From the IMG/VR virus record IMGVR_UViG_3300029305_011675: DNA of 64,000 nucleotides; one strand, written 5' to 3'. Shown here piece by piece: positions 10,121-50,586 of the stretch; the stretch's first letter is position 1; each line of letters starts with the position of its first letter. Under the pieces are notes generated by a model. That model did not search any database. It was not told the origin of the DNA and was given only the letters and a program-made list of their open reading frames with translations. A program made the translations under genes and the position numbers. The stretch comes from a virus (Duplodnaviria; Heunggongvirae; Uroviricota; Caudoviricetes).

Positions 10121-10278
10121 AATCCACCTCTTATTTTTGCGATATTTAGTTGATAATACAATTTTATCATAAAACGATACATCTGTCAACACTTTTTTCA
10201 TTGATTACAACAAAAGGTTGACTTTTTGATGGATTTGTGTTATAATTAAGGAAAGAAAACCAAGAAAGGAAGTAAAAT

Positions 10279-10743
10279 ATGAAAAAGATTATCGCATTTG
10301 TGTTAGTTGTTTTAATGTTGTTCTCAATGGTTGCTTGTTCAAATAAAACATCTATTTTAACACACACATTTAAGTCTCAAGACGAAGAAATTGTGTTTAG
10401 TATTGACACCGATAAATCCATGGAATTTTCAACCGATGAACACCCTGTAAAATTTTATTACAAAGGCGAAATGGTTGGCGAAGGTAGTTTTTATGTAATT
10501 GACTATTACCAAAGTTTTACTGAAAATTATAACACATCATACAATAAGATTTATAATCGTGATGCAAACGGAACATTATATACCGTTTATGAAAACAAAG
10601 ACGAATCCAGAGGTGCTTCTGTTGTTGCCATAATCAATTATGGAAGCGAAAAGTCTTTTATGCTTATTACCTCCCAGTCATCTGCCGAAAACTTGAAAAC
10701 AATAATCGAGAATATCAACATCAAATTACAAACTAAAAAATAA
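10279..10743 (+). CDS. Lipoprotein
   Basis: MKK-hydrophobic-MVAC lipobox. Confidence 0.75.
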   Translation: MKKIIAFVLVVLMLFSMVACSNKTSILTHTFKSQDEEIVFSIDTDKSMEFSTDEHPVKFYYKGEMVGEGSFYVIDYYQSFTENYNTSYNKIYNRDANGTLYTVYENKDESRGASVVAIINYGSEKSFMLITSQSSAENLKTIIENINIKLQTKK

Positions 10744-13451: not shown

Positions 13452-13976
13452 ATGTTCTTCAAAAAATTCGATTTTGAATCTTTCGATAAATGGGTAGGCA
13501 ACAAGAAGAGGAAAATCCAATTAGGCGACTACATTGCTGAAATAGGTGTTTTTTCTTATGGGTGTAATGGGAATACCGTAAACACCTATTGTGCCGCCCT
13601 TGCTTGTCGTCAAAACCCGCACAATGTATATTCATCTTGCATTTATCGTGAAATATTCAATTATGACCATAAAAATGGAAATATTGAAGAACTAAAAATG
13701 TGGTATGAAAAAGTGTGCGAGGAAATCAATCTCGCATATAAAGAATATATGAGAAAAAATTATTTCATTCCCAACCAAGACTTGTATATTGCACTTGCTC
13801 GTGGAGATGAAAGGGAAGAATATATTGCAATCGGTTTTACCGAAGAACAAGCAAAAATTAACTGCATTAAGGAATTTTTCAAAGAAGACAATCATACAGA
13901 AGCAGAATTAAATCAAAGCGGTTACGAAATCACCGTAAGCAAGTTTTCTAAAAATCATATGTCGGAGGGTATTTGA
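13452..13976 (+). CDS. Hypothetical protein (domain B + domain A fusion)
   Basis: Similarity to both preceding ORFs. Confidence 0.7.
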   Translation: MFFKKFDFESFDKWVGNKKRKIQLGDYIAEIGVFSYGCNGNTVNTYCAALACRQNPHNVYSSCIYREIFNYDHKNGNIEELKMWYEKVCEEINLAYKEYMRKNYFIPNQDLYIALARGDEREEYIAIGFTEEQAKINCIKEFFKEDNHTEAELNQSGYEITVSKFSKNHMSEGI

Positions 13977-13977
13977 T

Positions 13978-14706
13978 ATGGCAAAAAAAATGGAGTTAGA
14001 CTTTTTGTTGAACGATACTGCTTGGAAGATTGAAAACATTTCTACAAACGGTGCAAAAATCAAACCAATTCAAATTACTGCAATTTCGATTTATCAAAAC
14101 AATATCCGCTATGAATATGCTGGTGAATATGAAACTGGTTTTTTCTTTCATAAAGATGTTGGCGAAACTATCTTCGAAACAAGCACGGATGCACAAATGC
14201 ACTCCCAAAATGTTAAAGATGAAAATATCGATTGTGATTTTTCTTATATATTTTTTGCTGTCAGAAAACACATCACAAACTTTGACAATTTCACCCGTTT
14301 CAATATTCGTTTACGACACACAATCAACACCAACATTGCATACTTTGTAATTGACAAATGTGACAAGATTAACCCCAATTTGAGAAATAAAGCGGTTGTG
14401 GACAAACTCATCGGCGAATTAACAGAAGATGATATAGACAGCATTTGCGAAAAGCGAGGTATTTGCTACAAATACCATTCTGGTGTTCATGAAACTTCTG
14501 CTTATTCGCATGTTTCAAACCATAATTTTGATTCCGAAGAGGATTGCTACACAATCGACGCTTGGAAGACAGATGACGAAAACGAGGAGGGCAAAGTAAT
14601 CGCAAAAGTATCTAAAATAGGTGCATTGATTTTTATGCCTGAAACAAATTGTGCCGACCCTAAACTTTGTGCCGCAATCGAAGAAGTGCTAACAACAAAG
14701 TTTTAA
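13978..14706 (+). CDS. Hypothetical protein
   Basis: 242-aa ORF with RBS; ends at a bidirectional terminator. Confidence 0.7.
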   Translation: MAKKMELDFLLNDTAWKIENISTNGAKIKPIQITAISIYQNNIRYEYAGEYETGFFFHKDVGETIFETSTDAQMHSQNVKDENIDCDFSYIFFAVRKHITNFDNFTRFNIRLRHTINTNIAYFVIDKCDKINPNLRNKAVVDKLIGELTEDDIDSICEKRGICYKYHSGVHETSAYSHVSNHNFDSEEDCYTIDAWKTDDENEEGKVIAKVSKIGALIFMPETNCADPKLCAAIEEVLTTKF

Positions 14707-42485: not shown

Positions 42486-42673
42486 AGAACAAAAAATGTT
42501 CCTATATCGTTATTTTCAAATGCATAGCACCTGCGACGAACACAGCATCAAATGGAATAATATTGTGCAGGTAATATTTTGATGTACGGTTCAGTATCAA
42601 ATAAATTTGATTTTAAATTCTTTGAAAATAACTACAAAAGTGCCTGCAGTTCGTAGCAGGCACTTATCTTTTT
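42486..42673 (+). ncRNA. Putative RT-associated structured RNA or leader
   Basis: Perfect 12-bp inverted repeat 42509-42520/42621-42632; 10-bp hairpin 42638-42665; alternative pairing 42530-42541/42649-42660. Confidence 0.6.
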
Positions 42674-42686
42674 AGGAGGAAATCAA

Positions 42687-43874
42687 ATGAGCATTATAGA
42701 GTTGTTAAAAAACGAAAATGTTTGGTATGATTTTTTACAATATAAAATTGACGGTGGACACCTACCTAAACGAGACCAAGAAAGATTAGAAGACTATATA
42801 AAAAATAGAGAATACGAACCCGTTGTCGAAGATATTATAGAAGGAAAGCAATTTGCAATTCCAACTATAAAACACATAAACAAGAAAAATTCCACAAAAA
42901 AGAGAACCGTTTTCTTATTTGACGAAAAGGAAAATTTTGTATTAAAAGCACTTATGTTTCTTCTCTATAAATATGACAATATCTTTTCACCAAATTTATA
43001 TTCTTTTAGACAAAATATAAGTGTAAAAACAGCAATTGCCGATATTACCAAAAAAGATATTAAAAATATGTATGGGTACAAGGTAGATATTCATAATTAT
43101 TTCAACTCTGTTGATACAGAAATTATGACTAAAATTTTGCACGACAAAATAAAAGACGATGAGTCATTAGTTAATTTTATTATTTCAATTATTTCAGAAT
43201 CAAAAACTTGGTTCAATGGCAAAATGATAAATTGCGAGAAAGGAATTATGGCAGGCATCCCTATTTCTGGTTTTCTTGCCAATCTTTATCTCGAAGGACT
43301 CGACAGATGGTTTTATGAGCAAGGTATTTTATATGCAAGATATTCAGACGATATTATTGTTTTTGGAGAAACAAAGGAAAAGGTCGATGAGTACAAAAAT
43401 GTTATTAAACAATTTCTAACAAGTCGAAACCTGACTATCAATGAAAGCAAAGAGTTTGAGATAGAGCCAAACGGAAAATTAGACTTCTTGGGTTTCTCTT
43501 TTGTAGATGATAAAATTGATTTGTCCGATGTTGCTTTGAAAAAAATGAAAGACAAAATGAAACGAAAAGCAAAAGCACTTGTTCGTTGGAAGATAAGAAA
43601 CAAGGCAAGCGACGAAAGAGCAATTCGTGCATACATCAAACATTTCAATAAGAAGTTTTTTGACAACCTAAAGAACAATGAAATAACTTGGTGCAGATGG
43701 TATTTTCCAATTATTACAACCGATAATTCGTTGCATATATTGGATGACTATATGTTACAAAACATTCGTTATATTGCCACAGGAAAGCATACAAAGGCAA
43801 ATTATAACCTAAAATATGAAACCATAAAAGAATATGGTTTTAAAAGTTTGGTACATGCTTATTATAATTTTTAG
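42687..43874 (+). CDS. Reverse transcriptase, unclassified (not retron, DGR or group II intron by motifs)
   Basis: KVDIHNYFNSVD, GIMAGIPISGFLANLYL, YARYSDD and DFLGF motifs; AGGAGG RBS. Confidence 0.92.
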   Translation: MSIIELLKNENVWYDFLQYKIDGGHLPKRDQERLEDYIKNREYEPVVEDIIEGKQFAIPTIKHINKKNSTKKRTVFLFDEKENFVLKALMFLLYKYDNIFSPNLYSFRQNISVKTAIADITKKDIKNMYGYKVDIHNYFNSVDTEIMTKILHDKIKDDESLVNFIISIISESKTWFNGKMINCEKGIMAGIPISGFLANLYLEGLDRWFYEQGILYARYSDDIIVFGETKEKVDEYKNVIKQFLTSRNLTINESKEFEIEPNGKLDFLGFSFVDDKIDLSDVALKKMKDKMKRKAKALVRWKIRNKASDERAIRAYIKHFNKKFFDNLKNNEITWCRWYFPIITTDNSLHILDDYMLQNIRYIATGKHTKANYNLKYETIKEYGFKSLVHAYYNF

Positions 43875-46682: not shown

Positions 46683-47894
46683 ATGCAAATAATAGATTTG
46701 TTTGCTGGTTGCGGTGGTTTAAGCACTGGATTTGAGCAGGCGGGTTTTAATATTTCATTGGCAGTTGAAAAAGATTTAGGTGCAACAGAAACTTATAAGT
46801 TTAATCACCCAAACACACAACTTTTAGTAGAAGATATTACCAAATTAAACAATATAACACAATATATCGACAAACCAATTGATGGTGTAATAGGAAGTCC
46901 TCCATGCCAATCATTTTCCTTATCTGGCAACCGAAACCCCAAAGACCCACGAGGTTCTTTATTTATGGACTTTATGAGAATAACTCGTGAAGTTAATGCA
47001 AATTTTTTTGTTATGGAAAACGTAACAGGAATGTTGTCGATGAAAACAGCAAAAGGCGAAAAATATATTGATGTTATTCTCAACGAAATGACAAATAGTG
47101 GATACAATGTTGCTCATTTTGTATTAAATGCGGCAGAATTTGGAGTTCCGCAAAGTAGAAAAAGATTGTTTTTTATTGGTATAAGAAAAGATTTACCTTT
47201 TGACGCAAACTCATTAGAACCAAAAGGTTTTCTATTTGGAGATGACCAAATAACAATAGAACAAGCAATTATGGACTTACCACAAATAAACGCTTGTGAA
47301 GGAGCAGAACAGCAAAATTATAATTGTCTTCCACAAAATGAGTTCCAGAAATATTGTAGGCAAAATAGCGATTATGTTTATAATCATATTGCAATGAAGC
47401 ACACAAAACGTTTAGTGGAAAGATTCAATCAAATTAAATTCGGTCAATCTGTTGCTGATGTACCAGACGAATTTGGTCAAAGAAAAAGAGGAGATGCCTC
47501 TAAATTAAGTGGTAAAAAATATGCCCAAAACAATTTCAGACCGTTTCCGAACAAACCTTCTCCAACAATTCCCGCAAGTTTTCAAAGCAATTTTGTGCAT
47601 CCATTCTTAAACAGGAATTATACTGCACGAGAAGGGGCAAGACTTCAATCTTTCCCCGATACATATATTTTTAAAGGAAACAGAACCAATATGTCTTGGG
47701 AAAAGAACCTATCCCAATACCAACAGATTGGAAATGCAGTCCCACCTCTATTAGCAAAGGCAATTGCAGACACCATACAAAACTACGTGAACCTCACACG
47801 ACTAAAGTCGCGTGCTTCTCCGCTTGTTATTTACAGAGACTCTCTATCTACAGATACGACGCAAAATTCAGGAGAAAAGAACCGAAGTTCTTAA
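46683..47894 (+). CDS. C5-cytosine DNA methyltransferase; last codons replaced by read-through into TnpB element 2
   Basis: DLFAGCGG, PPCQSFS, ENV, QSRKR, RLQSFPD and GNAVPP motifs. Confidence 0.92.
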   Translation: MQIIDLFAGCGGLSTGFEQAGFNISLAVEKDLGATETYKFNHPNTQLLVEDITKLNNITQYIDKPIDGVIGSPPCQSFSLSGNRNPKDPRGSLFMDFMRITREVNANFFVMENVTGMLSMKTAKGEKYIDVILNEMTNSGYNVAHFVLNAAEFGVPQSRKRLFFIGIRKDLPFDANSLEPKGFLFGDDQITIEQAIMDLPQINACEGAEQQNYNCLPQNEFQKYCRQNSDYVYNHIAMKHTKRLVERFNQIKFGQSVADVPDEFGQRKRGDASKLSGKKYAQNNFRPFPNKPSPTIPASFQSNFVHPFLNRNYTAREGARLQSFPDTYIFKGNRTNMSWEKNLSQYQQIGNAVPPLLAKAIADTIQNYVNLTRLKSRASPLVIYRDSLSTDTTQNSGEKNRSS

Positions 47895-49333
47895 ACCCGC
47901 ATTAAGGTTAATTAGTGTAGACAAAGTGCATTGGGTTCTTTTCGCAACAGAAGGAACTTTTGCCTCCAGTTGCGACCTTACCGTTGCCGACAAGGGTTTT
48001 AGTATTTCTCTTATAAAATATCGTGCTCCGATATTATAAGATGCATTTAAATCACTGTGGTATTGTTTACCATTACCGAGAGTGCAGATACTATAATTAT
48101 CTTTCTCTCGTTTTACTTCACCACTACCATCGAATGATAGTTTGCTTGTATTCCAAGCACAGATGTGCGAAATGCGAATTCCCATTCGATGTGCTTTGCT
48201 TGTAACAATACCCTGAATATAGTTTTTTCTCCACATTGTAAGTTTTTGTTTCTTACTGCCAGAGATTTTGCCATTGATATCAAGATGCTCAAAAACGATA
48301 CAATGTACAGCGTTTTGAACAGCACAATCTACTATTGCTTGTGCAATTTTAATAGAATGCTGTTCATTACAGTTCTTGGCATAACTCCACAGTTTAGAAA
48401 CAGATTGATGTTTCTTCTGTTTCTTTTTAATCTTATTCAGTGTATGATACAGACGGTCTTTATCACTCGCAAAGTTGATAAACTTTCTATTGAGGACAGT
48501 TCCGTCCGCAGTCATTACCGAACAAACTGCATCGTTATTGATACCAAGGTCAACTGCTAATACTTTTTGGTTTTCTGCTTTTACTTCATTCAGTTTGACC
48601 TTTTCAGTAAAAGCAAATCTCAAATAGTATTTATTATATCTTCTCTCCAAAATTGGAGCAGACATCTCTTTATTTTGACAATACTTCCGAATATACTTAA
48701 TATCCGTAGCACGAAGATGCACTGGATACCAAACCCAATCATTGTTAATATAAAGTTTTAGATTAACAATGTTAGGATTATCCGTTTCTTCATAAGTATT
48801 ATCTCTATAGAAAATTGGACAACTATAATGTTTGGTCTGCAATCTTGGTGGTTTGCCAATCTTGCCATTCTTTTCCCAATTTTCATAGTTGCTTCTATAA
48901 GAAGATACAATGCCGATTGCATCGGCAATGACTCCTCTACGAAAGTAACTTGGCATTTTGTAAAACAATTGGTCGAACTCTGGGTATTTTGCCTCATTAT
49001 CCTTTGTCGTATGGATAAGATGTTCAACCAAATTATTTTTGCGATTGCCTTTTAGTGCAGAAATACTATCCCACTCATTATTTATAATGGGGATTAAGAA
49101 AGTGAGTGCTTCTCTATATTTATTTACGGTTGGTTTTAACATTTTGTTAATACCAACAATTTGAACCTTATAACTCGTAGTTATGTTCATTCTTTAATAA
49201 GCACTTCCTTTCTGTTTAAGATAGATATATTATAACATATTTTCTTAACAATTGCAACCTTTTTATTTAAGAATAATAAGAAACATCGCCTTACTCACGA
49301 CTAAAGTCACGAGAATGCGGCGATGTTGTTTTA
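47787..49333 (-). mobile_element. IS200/IS605 family non-autonomous element (tnpB only), copy 2
   Basis: Same ends as copy 1; excision restores the MTase end NY-FKNI-stop. Confidence 0.88.
47868..49190 (-). CDS. tnpB: TnpB RNA-guided nuclease
   Basis: RuvC D-E-D intact; highly similar but not identical to copy 1. Confidence 0.88.
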   Translation of the reverse strand: MNITTSYKVQIVGINKMLKPTVNKYREALTFLIPIINNEWDSISALKGNRKNNLVEHLIHTTKDNEAKYPEFDQLFYKMPSYFRRGVIADAIGIVSSYRSNYENWEKNGKIGKPPRLQTKHYSCPIFYRDNTYEETDNPNIVNLKLYINNDWVWYPVHLRATDIKYIRKYCQNKEMSAPILERRYNKYYLRFAFTEKVKLNEVKAENQKVLAVDLGINNDAVCSVMTADGTVLNRKFINFASDKDRLYHTLNKIKKKQKKHQSVSKLWSYAKNCNEQHSIKIAQAIVDCAVQNAVHCIVFEHLDINGKISGSKKQKLTMWRKNYIQGIVTSKAHRMGIRISHICAWNTSKLSFDGSGEVKREKDNYSICTLGNGKQYHSDLNASYNIGARYFIREILKPLSATVRSQLEAKVPSVAKRTQCTLSTLINLNAGLRTSVLFS

Positions 49334-49423: not shown

Positions 49424-49452
49424 TTGACATTAAGGTTTATCTGTGGTATAAT
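49424..49452 (+). promoter_or_regulatory. Consensus sigmaA promoter of the ncRNA operon
   Basis: TTGACA-17 nt-TATAAT with extended -10 TG. Confidence 0.85.
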
Positions 49453-49474
49453 AACGACAGTCAATGAGACACAT

Positions 49475-49550
49475 GCTCGTGTAGCTCAGTTGGAAGAGCA
49501 CCAGACTTTTAATCTGGGTGTCGAGGGTTCGAGCCCCTCCACGGGCACCA
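49475..49550 (+). tRNA. tRNA-Lys(UUU)
   Basis: Canonical cloverleaf; anticodon arm CCAGA-CTTTTAA-TCTGG; encoded CCA. Confidence 0.95.
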
Positions 49551-49553
49551 TAA

Positions 49554-49820
49554 TAAAACAGTTCCGAAAGGGTTTAATGAAACATCTGCTTCGACAGTAG
49601 ACTGACTTCAAGTAGGACTTGCAGAGAGACTGCAAGGAAATGTGGGACTCCTTATTAAGAATGGAGAGAGACGGGAAAAGAGTCGGGAAAACCGAATGAA
49701 ACCCGAAAACGAGATTAGACTTGGGCGAAACACCAAGTATCGACTGCTCGGCTGTAAATGATGGATATAATCTACCACTATCGCAGGCGCTTGAAATAGC
49801 GGAAATCACAAACTGTTTTA
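49554..49820 (+). ncRNA. ~267-nt structured RNA of unknown family
   Basis: Closing helix TAAAACAGTT/AACTGTTTTA; hairpins CTTGCAG/CTGCAAG, TCGG/CCGA and ACTTGG/CCAAGT. Confidence 0.6.
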
Positions 49821-49827
49821 TTTTTAT

Positions 49828-49945
49828 GTATCTGTATCGTGCTGGAAAACGAGGTTGTAAATACCAGTAACTACTTCGAGAAGTCATATCGAAGCAAGAC
49901 AGGTTGGCAATTGCGGTGTTGGTTCGAGTCCAACCAGATGCACCA
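49828..49945 (+). ncRNA. tRNA-like RNA with ~48-nt expanded anticodon loop
   Basis: Acceptor GTATCTG/CAGATGC + ACCA; D-arm TCGT/ACGA; T-arm GTTGG-TTCGAGT-CCAAC. Confidence 0.7.
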
Positions 49946-50119
49946 AGAGGCAGTAGCCCTAAATAGAGATTGTGACGAGTGCGAAATGCTTAAATAACCC
50001 GCAGAAAACATCTCCGTATCGCGCGAACGAAGATGTGGTTAACCCGAAGCAATCGAGGGGCGGAGTCACTGTTCGATATACAAACTCGGTGTTGGTGAAA
50101 CCCCAACCTGCCTCTAACA
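49946..50119 (+). ncRNA. tRNA-like RNA with large internal domain
   Basis: AGAGGCAG/CTGCCTCT stem adjacent to a T-like arm GTTGG-TGAAACC-CCAAC. Confidence 0.55.
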
Positions 50120-50124
50120 AATAT

Positions 50125-50188
50125 GTGCTGTCGTTTAAATGGAAGACGCGAAAAAGCATGATTGGGTCGATACCAGTCCAGCACACCA
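50125..50188 (+). ncRNA. Minimal tRNA-like RNA with vestigial anticodon arm
   Basis: GTGCTG/CAGCAC + ACCA; D-like arm; T-like arm ATTGG-GTCGATA-CCAGT. Confidence 0.6.
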
Positions 50189-50549
50189 ACAAAAGGAAGG
50201 TAGGCTTAAGAGTAGCCATCCTTTAAAGAGTGGGGAGTAGAAGAACCTGCATTTGCGCAACGTGGAGTTCAAGAAAAGGCGGGTCAGGCCAACCGAGGTC
50301 GCCGTACAAACTACAGGGAAACGAAAGCAGAACGGTCACAATACAGCAATAGTTTAGGAAGCAGTTGAAATACTGTGGAGCGTCTTGCGCTGTGTGATGC
50401 GAGACCACAAGTAGTGTGTAATATGGTAAGTTTCCAAAACGCGAGAGACGCTGGGAATTAAGTAAGCGATGCAATGTTCGGTAAAAGCTAACTTACAATG
50501 CCATATGTGCCCTCTGACCCTTTGGTGTAGCAACACACCTTTTGTACCA
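50189..50549 (+). ncRNA. CCA-ended RNA containing a split mimic of 23S rRNA H43-H44 (uL11-binding domain)
   Basis: AGGAAGGTAGGCTTAAGAGTAGCCATCCTTTAAAGAGTG ... GTGTAGCAACACAC; closing stem ACAAAAGG/CCTTTTGT + ACCA. Confidence 0.75.
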
Positions 50550-50553
50550 AAAG

Positions 50554-50586
50554 AAAAGTCCGTTGATTATTCAACGGACTTTTTTC
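50554..50586. terminator. Bidirectional terminator between the ncRNA operon and pyk
   Basis: AAAAGTCCGTTGA/TCAACGGACTTTT. Confidence 0.85.

What the first reader, a model, noticed from the sequence alone, without database searches (positions are those of the whole stretch)
49424..50586. 1.1-kb non-coding operon: one true tRNA followed by a train of tRNA-shaped RNAs with rebuilt anticodon arms
Seen: one consensus promoter and one terminator enclose back-to-back units. These are tRNA-Lys, a 267-nt multi-hairpin RNA, three tRNA-like units and the rRNA mimic. Each tRNA-like unit keeps the acceptor and T arm, while the anticodon arm is expanded (49828-49945), replaced by a large domain (49946-50119) or nearly deleted (50125-50188). 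The region is GC-richer than the flanking intergenic DNA and has no credible ORF. Inference: the tRNA ends act as RNase P/RNase Z processing punctuation or stabilising caps for cargo RNAs. Alternatively these are non-decoding decoys for anticodon nucleases, T-boxes or RelA. This may be an undescribed RNA-based translation-manipulation system.
Basis: partly seen in the sequence, partly recalled or inferred. Interest (0 to 1): 0.85.

Follow-up and report, generated by a model that had tools for sequence, protein, structure and literature searches.

The report
Operon of tRNA and ribosome mimics
A very large gut mobile element keeps, behind one promoter, a real lysine tRNA, three tRNA-shaped RNAs that cannot read codons, an orphan folded RNA and a free copy of the ribosome's L11-binding site; all are under strong selection, so they are working RNAs that most likely imitate parts of the host's translation machinery, though what they bind is untested.

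Summary
The operon is real: a perfect sigma-70-type promoter, a terminator and six back-to-back RNAs, with no ORF kept intact across strains. Across eight strain contigs the tRNA-like units vary at 0-8% of sites, against 42-43% at synonymous sites of both flanking genes, and 7 of the 8 stem pairs that vary stay paired, so they are not decaying pseudo-tRNAs. One correction: in 49946-50119 the large domain grows out of the D arm, and an anticodon-like arm remains whose loop is complementary to the domain's tip. The 267-nt RNA is a covarying relative of a full-length RAGATH-33. The last unit is a split copy of 23S rRNA H43/H44 with perfect covariation of the 1072/1092/1099 triple. Both appear in metatranscriptome contigs. 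Their relatives occur separately in other phage tRNA clusters, so this is a lineage-specific assembly of modules, not a fixed system. Best reading: a tRNA-punctuated transcript cut into stable mimics that occupy host tRNA- and ribosome-binding proteins; the targets are inferred, not shown. Closest known: T4 species 1/2 RNAs and polycistrons of irregular tRNAs. The scan found the rRNA mimic family and similar tRNA shells before on other DNA.

The parts
49424..49452 (+). Sigma-70/sigma-A promoter, 12/12 consensus, 17-nt spacer, extended -10
   Evidence: both hexamers kept in five strain contigs while the spacer varies
49475..49550 (+). Canonical tRNA-Lys(UUU) with encoded CCA
   Evidence: three alleles of pair 27:43 (C-G, U-A, A-U) and two compensatory T-stem changes among strains
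49554..49820 (+). Unit A: 267-nt multi-helix RNA closed by a 10-bp terminal helix; divergent subtype of a full-length RAGATH-33 RNA
   Evidence: z -3.0; weak RAGATH-33 hit, 21 bits; shares an exact 20-nt motif with loci that pass RAGATH-33; 25 of 63 predicted pairs change on both sides among three same-subtype sequences; RNA contigs in three studies
49828..49945 (+). Unit B: 118-nt tRNA frame (7/5, A73, CCA, D-loop GG, normal T loop) with the anticodon loop replaced by a ~48-nt irregular hairpin ending in a 9-nt loop
   Evidence: Rfam tRNA 27.4 bits with a 50-nt insert; all 10 variable sites lie inside the extended arm; one two-sided and two one-sided pair-keeping changes, one pair broken in 2 of 5 sequences
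49946..50119 (+). Unit C: 174-nt tRNA frame with a ~95-nt branched domain in the D arm, a retained anticodon-like arm (7-nt loop, GAU centred, C at 33), T loop UGAAA type, no encoded CCA
   Evidence: 5 variable sites, the 3 in stems all exchange G.U and G-C; domain tip 50017-50021 is complementary to loop 50074-50078, chance about 0.02
50125..50188 (+). Unit D: 64-nt minimal tRNA shape (6/6 acceptor-T stack, intact D arm with GG, A73, CCA), anticodon arm reduced to 2 bp plus an A-rich loop
   Evidence: no substitution in 64 sites across eight contigs, only a 1-nt indel in the stub loop
50189..50231 (+). Unit E, 5' part: closing helix plus copy of 23S rRNA 1055-1090 (H43; A1067 equivalent at 50208, U1072 at 50213)
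50232..50520 (+). Unit E insert: 289 nt closed by a 3-bp stem, placed between rRNA positions 1090 and 1091
   Evidence: closing stem covaries in three forms across 17 family members; 7% variable sites among strains
50521..50549 (+). Unit E, 3' part: copy of H44 (A1095 equivalent at 50529; U1092-A1099 pair), closing helix, then ACCA
   Evidence: invariant among strains
50552..50585 (+). Bidirectional intrinsic terminator shared with the convergent pyruvate kinase gene
   Evidence: only the loop and the U-tract length vary among strains

Best explanation
This is one non-coding transcription unit of a very large gut mobile element (megaplasmid or huge phage, not settled). Host RNA polymerase makes a ~1.1-kb RNA (promoter and terminator seen; parts of A and E seen in RNA libraries). 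Host RNase P and 3'-trimming enzymes cut at the tRNA frames and release six stable RNAs (inferred from the layout: 0-7 nt spacers, B's CCA abutting C). tRNA-Lys decodes and can replace a host tRNA that defence nucleases destroy (precedent: T5). B, C and D keep the acceptor end and the T arm but have lost, lengthened or masked the anticodon, so they cannot decode; E rebuilds the folded uL11-binding surface of 23S rRNA off the ribosome (structure supported by covariation). The most likely job (inferred) is imitation: the set occupies host proteins that recognise tRNA ends and the GTPase centre, first among them uL11 and Rel, which together trigger the stringent response, and toxins that act on the CCA end, so that translation continues for the element. 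A is an orphan RNA that shares the promoter and is dispensable.
For: Purifying selection: variable sites B 10/118, C 5/174, D 0/64, A 12/266, E insert 21/289, against 80/185 and 49/117 four-fold sites in the flanking pyruvate kinase and methylase genes. Stem changes keep pairing in 7 of 8 varying pairs. In E the bases at 1072, 1092 and 1099 are C,C,G in 12 and U,U,A in 5 distinct members, never mixed (a sixth U,U,A member); from my own knowledge these three form a base triple of the rRNA fold. E relatives lie in tRNA clusters of Pseudomonas phages pf16, UNO-G1W1 and Astolliot and of many uncultured phages. Near-identical RNA contigs cover A and E in two studies, with none on the adjoining 800 bases of pyruvate kinase in run X1. 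A phage tRNA-Lys rescues PARIS (PMC11464382).
Against: No binding, processing or aminoacylation datum. No raw reads, so ends, strand and level are unknown. The units do not travel together outside this lineage. A is disrupted in L070/L071. B, C and D have no distant relatives in my searches, so their folds rest on close strains with a single two-sided change. A's target is unknown and it resembles no rRNA beyond chance. The choice of Rel and uL11 as targets rests on known biology, not on a test here.
Confidence: 0.5

Rival explanations
1. The RNAs are scaffolds or partners for proteins of the element itself (as Y RNA is for Ro60), or substrates of its own RNA repair enzymes, and do not act on host factors.
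For: The element encodes an RNA ligase (PF09414), an AAA_28 kinase-like protein and a deaminase 14-19 kb upstream of the window and carries a further tRNA-framed RNA at 21133-21426. Lineage-specific inserts suit lineage-specific partners.
Against: No Ro60 or other RNA-binding gene among the annotated neighbours; no YrlA hit. E conserves the host uL11 surface across unrelated phages. B's loop begins with A32-A33, so excising the insert would not give a canonical anticodon loop.
Confidence: 0.2
2. The tRNA frames are processing marks and protective caps; the function lies in the cargo (B's arm, C's domain, A, E's insert), for example antisense or protein-binding small RNAs.
For: Back-to-back layout with spacers of 0-7 nt; inserts are structured and conserved among strains; E inserts differ freely in length, 75-354 nt.
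Against: D has no cargo and is invariant; in B all variation lies in the cargo and none in the frame; in E the rRNA-like ends, not the insert, are what the family conserves.
Confidence: 0.17
3. Some of the shells are unusual but working tRNAs, or are aminoacylated for a use off the ribosome.
For: B's frame aligns best to a phage tRNA-Ile(GAU); C's loop centres on GAU followed by A; B and C share an identical T-stem region. Irregular tRNAs can be charged yet not translate (PMC5389517).
Against: B lacks U33 and A14, C has C33, a probable loop pairing and no D-loop GG, D has no anticodon stem; none has G3.U70.
Confidence: 0.1
4. Decaying tRNA pseudogenes and insertion remnants under a leftover promoter.
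For: A is broken by an IS200/IS605 remnant in one lineage; B, C and D have no distant relatives found.
Against: Five- to fifteen-fold (D: complete) suppression of variation relative to synonymous sites on both sides; pair-keeping changes; covarying families for A and E.
Confidence: 0.03

Closest known systems
Bacteriophage T4 species 1 and 2 RNAs (rnaC, rnaD)
   Same: Stable RNAs of unknown function (PMC9697503) that, from my own knowledge, lie in the T4 tRNA cluster, are cut from tRNA precursors and end in a T arm and CCA.
   Different: No sequence match; here three different frames plus an rRNA mimic share one promoter with a single true tRNA.
Polycistrons of irregular tRNAs and allo-tRNAs (Mukai et al., PMC5389517)
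   Same: Co-transcribed irregular tRNA shapes on mobile DNA, some charged but not translating.
   Different: Those keep anticodon loops and 8/4 or 7/5 stacks; none is described with a D-arm domain, a deleted anticodon arm or an rRNA mimic.
GTPase-associated centre of 23S rRNA (H43/H44, E. coli 1051-1108; uL11 and thiostrepton site)
   Same: Near-identical sequence, A1067 and A1095 kept, 1072/1092/1099 covary as a triple.
   Different: Free-standing, split between 1090 and 1091 by a 289-nt insert, closed by its own 8-bp helix and ACCA; not part of an rRNA gene.
RAGATH-33 RNA (Rfam RF03102)
   Same: Exact 20-nt core motif, same order of helices, same setting in phage tRNA clusters.
   Different: Scores 21 bits against a cut-off of 120; the Rfam model covers only 113 of about 245-290 nt; unit A is a second subtype.
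YrlA Y RNA with Ro60 (PMC4201824) and the tRNA-like domain of tmRNA
   Same: Non-decoding tRNA mimics that RNase P and CCA-adding enzyme can process.
   Different: B, C and D have real open acceptor ends, not a permuted module; no Ro60 nearby, no G3.U70, no tag frame.
Phage tRNA-Lys(UUU) that neutralises PARIS (PMC11464382)
   Same: Same isoacceptor on a mobile element.
   Different: Resistance to cleavage not tested; host is probably a Firmicute.

Membership tests
Canonical tRNA (RF00005), unit 49475-49550 | Cloverleaf, 7-nt loop with U33, CCA | tested here: met
Canonical tRNA (RF00005), units B, C, D | 5-bp anticodon stem with a 7-nt loop and U33 | tested here: not met
   B has a 50-nt insert, C has C33 on a bulged 7-bp stem, D has a 2-bp stub
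Canonical tRNA (RF00005), units B, C, D | 12-13 bp acceptor plus T stack with T loop | tested here: met
Intron-containing tRNA | Removing the insert restores a canonical loop; group I or II core present | tested here: not met
   B's loop starts A32-A33; no intron family at E<10
tmRNA | G3.U70 alanine pair, tag reading frame | tested here: not met
   pairs 3:70 are A-U (B), G-C (C, D); ARAGORN calls no tmRNA
YrlA Y RNA | Rfam model match and adjacent Ro60 gene | tested here: not met
   no hit at E<10; no Ro60 among neighbours
T4 species 1/2-type RNAs | tRNA-like ends in a tRNA transcript of a mobile element | tested here: met
T4 species 1/2-type RNAs | Sequence homology to rnaC/rnaD | tested here: not met
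   no T4-like hit beyond a generic T arm
T4 species 1/2-type RNAs | Accumulates as a discrete processed RNA | not testable with these tools
   only assembled contigs were available
RAGATH-33 (RF03102), unit A | Reaches the gathering score | tested here: not met
   21.4 against 120.4 bits
RAGATH-33 (RF03102), unit A | Core motif and helix order shared with true members | tested here: met
23S rRNA GTPase centre fold, unit E | H43/H44 sequence with A1067, A1095 and the 1072/1092/1099 triple | tested here: met
23S rRNA GTPase centre fold, unit E | Binds uL11 or thiostrepton | not testable with these tools
   needs a binding assay
rRNA gene or fragment | Flanking rRNA sequence | tested here: not met
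   similarity ends at the core; insert at chance level against 16S, 23S, 5S

The most novel reading that the evidence does not exclude
A mobile element switches off the host's stringent response and tRNA-directed immunity with RNA alone: a free GTPase-centre copy titrates uL11, anticodon-less CCA-ended shells hold Rel and CCA-directed toxins away from the ribosome, and a spare tRNA-Lys replaces the cleaved one, all cut from one transcript.
Probability: 0.15. Interest if true: 0.88.

Novelty: new variant of a known kind. Interest (0 to 1): 0.6.

Why it matters
tRNA-like RNAs in phage tRNA clusters have been without a function since T4 species 1 and 2. This locus packs three different frames and a ribosomal RNA mimic into 1.1 kb under one strong promoter, with strain data that show selection, so the question can be tested by cloning one short fragment. 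I found no paper describing a free-standing copy of the uL11 site (the library lacks most subscription papers). If these RNAs titrate uL11, Rel or CCA-directed toxins, mobile elements would have an RNA-only route to control host translation and immunity.

Tried and rejected
No genome is held for the window. Synteny with pyruvate kinase is lost in relatives at 83-89% protein identity, so only strains gave the whole operon. A as an rRNA mimic: at chance level against 23S, 16S and 5S. A as a group I intron or RNase P RNA: no Rfam support. C's insert and D each resemble 16S 949-978 (p 0.02-0.16 and <0.003 before correction); with about 30 comparisons, and D's match lying on an ordinary D arm, I treat this as chance. 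A 7-bp complement between B's tip and A breaks in strains L073/L075; rejected. No sarcin-ricin loop seen in E's insert. RNA contigs did not cover B, C, D or the element's tRNA-Lys; small structured RNAs are often lost from such libraries, so this shows nothing; contigs of two studies begin at the same base inside A (49572), a weak hint only. The very high depth at 50198-50232 is true rRNA mapping onto the mimic. Folding the whole transcript at once did not even recover tRNA-Lys and is uninformative. Models of B, C and D found only ordinary tRNAs or nothing: C and D in 25 phage or MAG records, B and D in 46 fetched sources; a T-arm pattern for C gave no relative. No match in plasmids or in 300 other genomes of the family of the MAG holding L046. 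A review on large ncRNAs was not held.

Full report
Setting. The window belongs to a very large element: the pyruvate kinase next to the operon is on record on contigs of up to 678,911 bases, yet it has no relative in the viral collection and none above 59% identity among species genomes. The genes around it are a patchwork: DNA methylases, NAD-dependent ligase, NUDIX, reverse transcriptase, type IV pilin-like proteins, PARP, TnpB and many unknowns, with no ribosomal or other housekeeping block among those annotated. Gene order is lost in relatives at 83-89% identity. I read it as an extrachromosomal element of a gut Firmicute; whether it is a megaplasmid or a huge phage is not settled. A relative of unit A lies on a contig binned with a Lachnospiraceae MAG.

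The observation. A 12/12 promoter (49424-49452) and a terminator (50552-50585) enclose six units. Only tRNA-Lys(UUU) is called by ARAGORN and Rfam; B reaches 27.4 bits with a 50-nt insert. A descriptor for acceptor plus T arm finds B, C and D and nothing in 500 shuffles. GC is 46% against 28% upstream. One description needs correcting. In C the first helix starts two bases after the acceptor strand, one base separates it from a second arm, and three bases separate that arm from the T arm: the spacing of a class I cloverleaf. The ~95-nt domain is therefore in the D arm, and the second arm is anticodon-like, with a 7-nt loop centred on GAU but with C at 33. Both stretches are invariant among strains, so there is no covariation for it.

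Selection. Seven strain contigs carry the operon in whole or in part beside the same kinase gene. Four-fold synonymous sites vary at 43% (80/185) in the kinase and 42% (49/117) in the methylase on the other side; B varies at 10/118, C at 5/174, D at 0/64, A at 12/266 and E's insert at 21/289. In B all changes lie in the long arm and none in the acceptor, D or T arms; one pair changes on both sides (C-G to U-A), two on one side, and one is broken in two of five sequences. In C the three stem changes all exchange G.U and G-C. These strains are close, so the pair counts do not beat their shuffle controls; the strong evidence is the low rate, not covariation. One lineage (L070, L071) has A broken by the 3' remnant of an IS200/IS605 element, so A is dispensable there.

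Unit E. Its two ends rebuild 23S rRNA 1055-1104 around a 289-nt insert placed between 1090 and 1091. Relatives lie unannotated in the tRNA clusters of Pseudomonas phages pf16, UNO-G1W1 and Astolliot and of many uncultured phages and contigs. Among 17 distinct members the outer helix differs in sequence, the stem closing the insert takes three covarying forms, and positions 1072, 1092 and 1099 read C,C,G twelve times and U,U,A five times, never mixed. From established knowledge of the rRNA domain these bases form a triple, so selection acts on the three-dimensional fold that uL11 binds; A1067 and A1095 are kept. The terminal ACCA is not general in the family. The scan reported this family before on other genomes (e1-5324979, e1-5344361).

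Unit A. It shares an exact 20-nt motif with five viral and two MAG loci, two of which pass RAGATH-33. Those RNAs extend well beyond the 113-nt Rfam model to 243-291 nt, closed by a terminal helix. A, L043 and L046 form a second subtype: 25 of 63 predicted pairs change on both sides, and 13 of 59 in the RAGATH-33 subtype. Most of these loci are tRNA clusters. It resembles no rRNA beyond chance.

Expression. Assembled contigs of RNA libraries from two studies cover A (49572-49767) and E (50205-50511) with 1-3 differences each; run X1 has nothing on the adjoining kinase gene or upstream DNA; a third, bovine gut study holds an exact piece of E's 3' end and more distant copies of A and E. Contigs show presence only, not ends, strand or level.

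How it most likely works. Shown: one promoter and terminator, six folded units, purifying selection, a conserved rRNA fold in E, RNA for A and E. Inferred: cutting by RNase P at the 5' ends of the four tRNA frames and trimming to CCA releases separate RNAs (a tRNA-like Y RNA is so processed, PMC4201824). B, C and D cannot decode but offer an acceptor end and, in B and D, an intact elbow; D keeps U8-A14, A15-U48, G18-U55 and G19-C56 partners. The spare tRNA-Lys has a precedent in counter-defence (PMC11464382). The simplest common purpose is imitation of the translation apparatus: E for uL11 and the factors that dock there, the shells for proteins that grip the elbow or an uncharged CCA end, such as Rel or CCA-directed toxins (own knowledge). 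Decoys for anticodon nucleases or T-boxes are less likely because the anticodon is the part removed or masked. I put this at about 0.5; partners encoded by the element (0.2), cargo carried on tRNA caps (0.17), odd charged tRNAs (0.1) and decay (0.03) are the rivals.

System or assembly? Records with A relatives lacked the E pattern (0 of 5; several are incomplete), and B, C and D had no relatives outside the lineage. Other expanded shells, including two with D-loop rods beside an E relative in L026, occur in the fetched clusters. The operon is thus a local collection of RNA types that recur in tRNA clusters of large mobile elements.

Novelty. tRNA-framed stable RNAs of unknown function are known from T4 (PMC9697503), and polycistrons of irregular tRNAs from Mukai et al. 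(PMC5389517); a survey of 10,006 viral candidate RNAs mentions no rRNA overlap, L11 or RAGATH in its main text (PMC10690425; supplement not read). I found no paper on a free GTPase-centre mimic or on RAGATH-33. I class the operon as a new variant of a known kind, with E the most unusual part, and score it 0.6: real, selected, compact and testable, but function unshown and the parts not tied into a fixed system.

Noticed in passing
window 21133-21426 (+): A second tRNA-framed RNA of 294 nt with ACCA, T loop and its own terminator; no Rfam family.
   Followed up: partly
window 47868-49190 and 21734-23056 (-): Two copies of an IS200/IS605 TnpB element; the first is absent from strains L070-L075, so it is a recent insertion beside the operon.
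   Followed up: partly
L070 about 10230-10620; L071 about 10230-10463: 3' remnant of the same TnpB element inserted into unit A just after a TTGAA site, with about 42 bases of A lost.
   Followed up: partly
window 49475-49550: The true tRNA-Lys varies more among strains (8 of 76 sites, all pair-keeping or unpaired) than units C and D, with three alleles of pair 27:43; could reflect an arms race or recombination.
   Followed up: no
window 42525-42625 and 42687-43874: Rfam RT-5 RNA directly upstream of a reverse transcriptase.
   Followed up: no
L041:6566-6711 and L045:11335-11470: Small tRNA-like RNAs with reduced anticodon arms nested inside the anticodon loop of another tRNA in gut phages.
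   Followed up: no
L026:14202-14336 and 13789-13983 (-): Two tRNA-shaped RNAs with long rods in the D loop on a contig that also has an E relative.
   Followed up: partly
L004:3660-3985: Pseudomonas phage Astolliot appears to carry a second, more divergent GTPase-centre mimic just upstream of the first.
   Followed up: no
L041:6122-6364, L047:880-1139: RAGATH-33 is about twice as long as its Rfam model and is closed by a covarying terminal helix.
   Followed up: partly
L093:1-5921: Deaminase, AAA_28 protein and RNA ligase genes 14-19 kb upstream of the window.
   Followed up: no
window 23261-23983, 27143-28366: A small metallopeptidase with a weak ATLF/M90 domain match and a PARP catalytic domain protein.
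   Followed up: no
window 50018-50025: The tip of C's domain holds an 8-base palindrome that could allow two molecules to pair.
   Followed up: no
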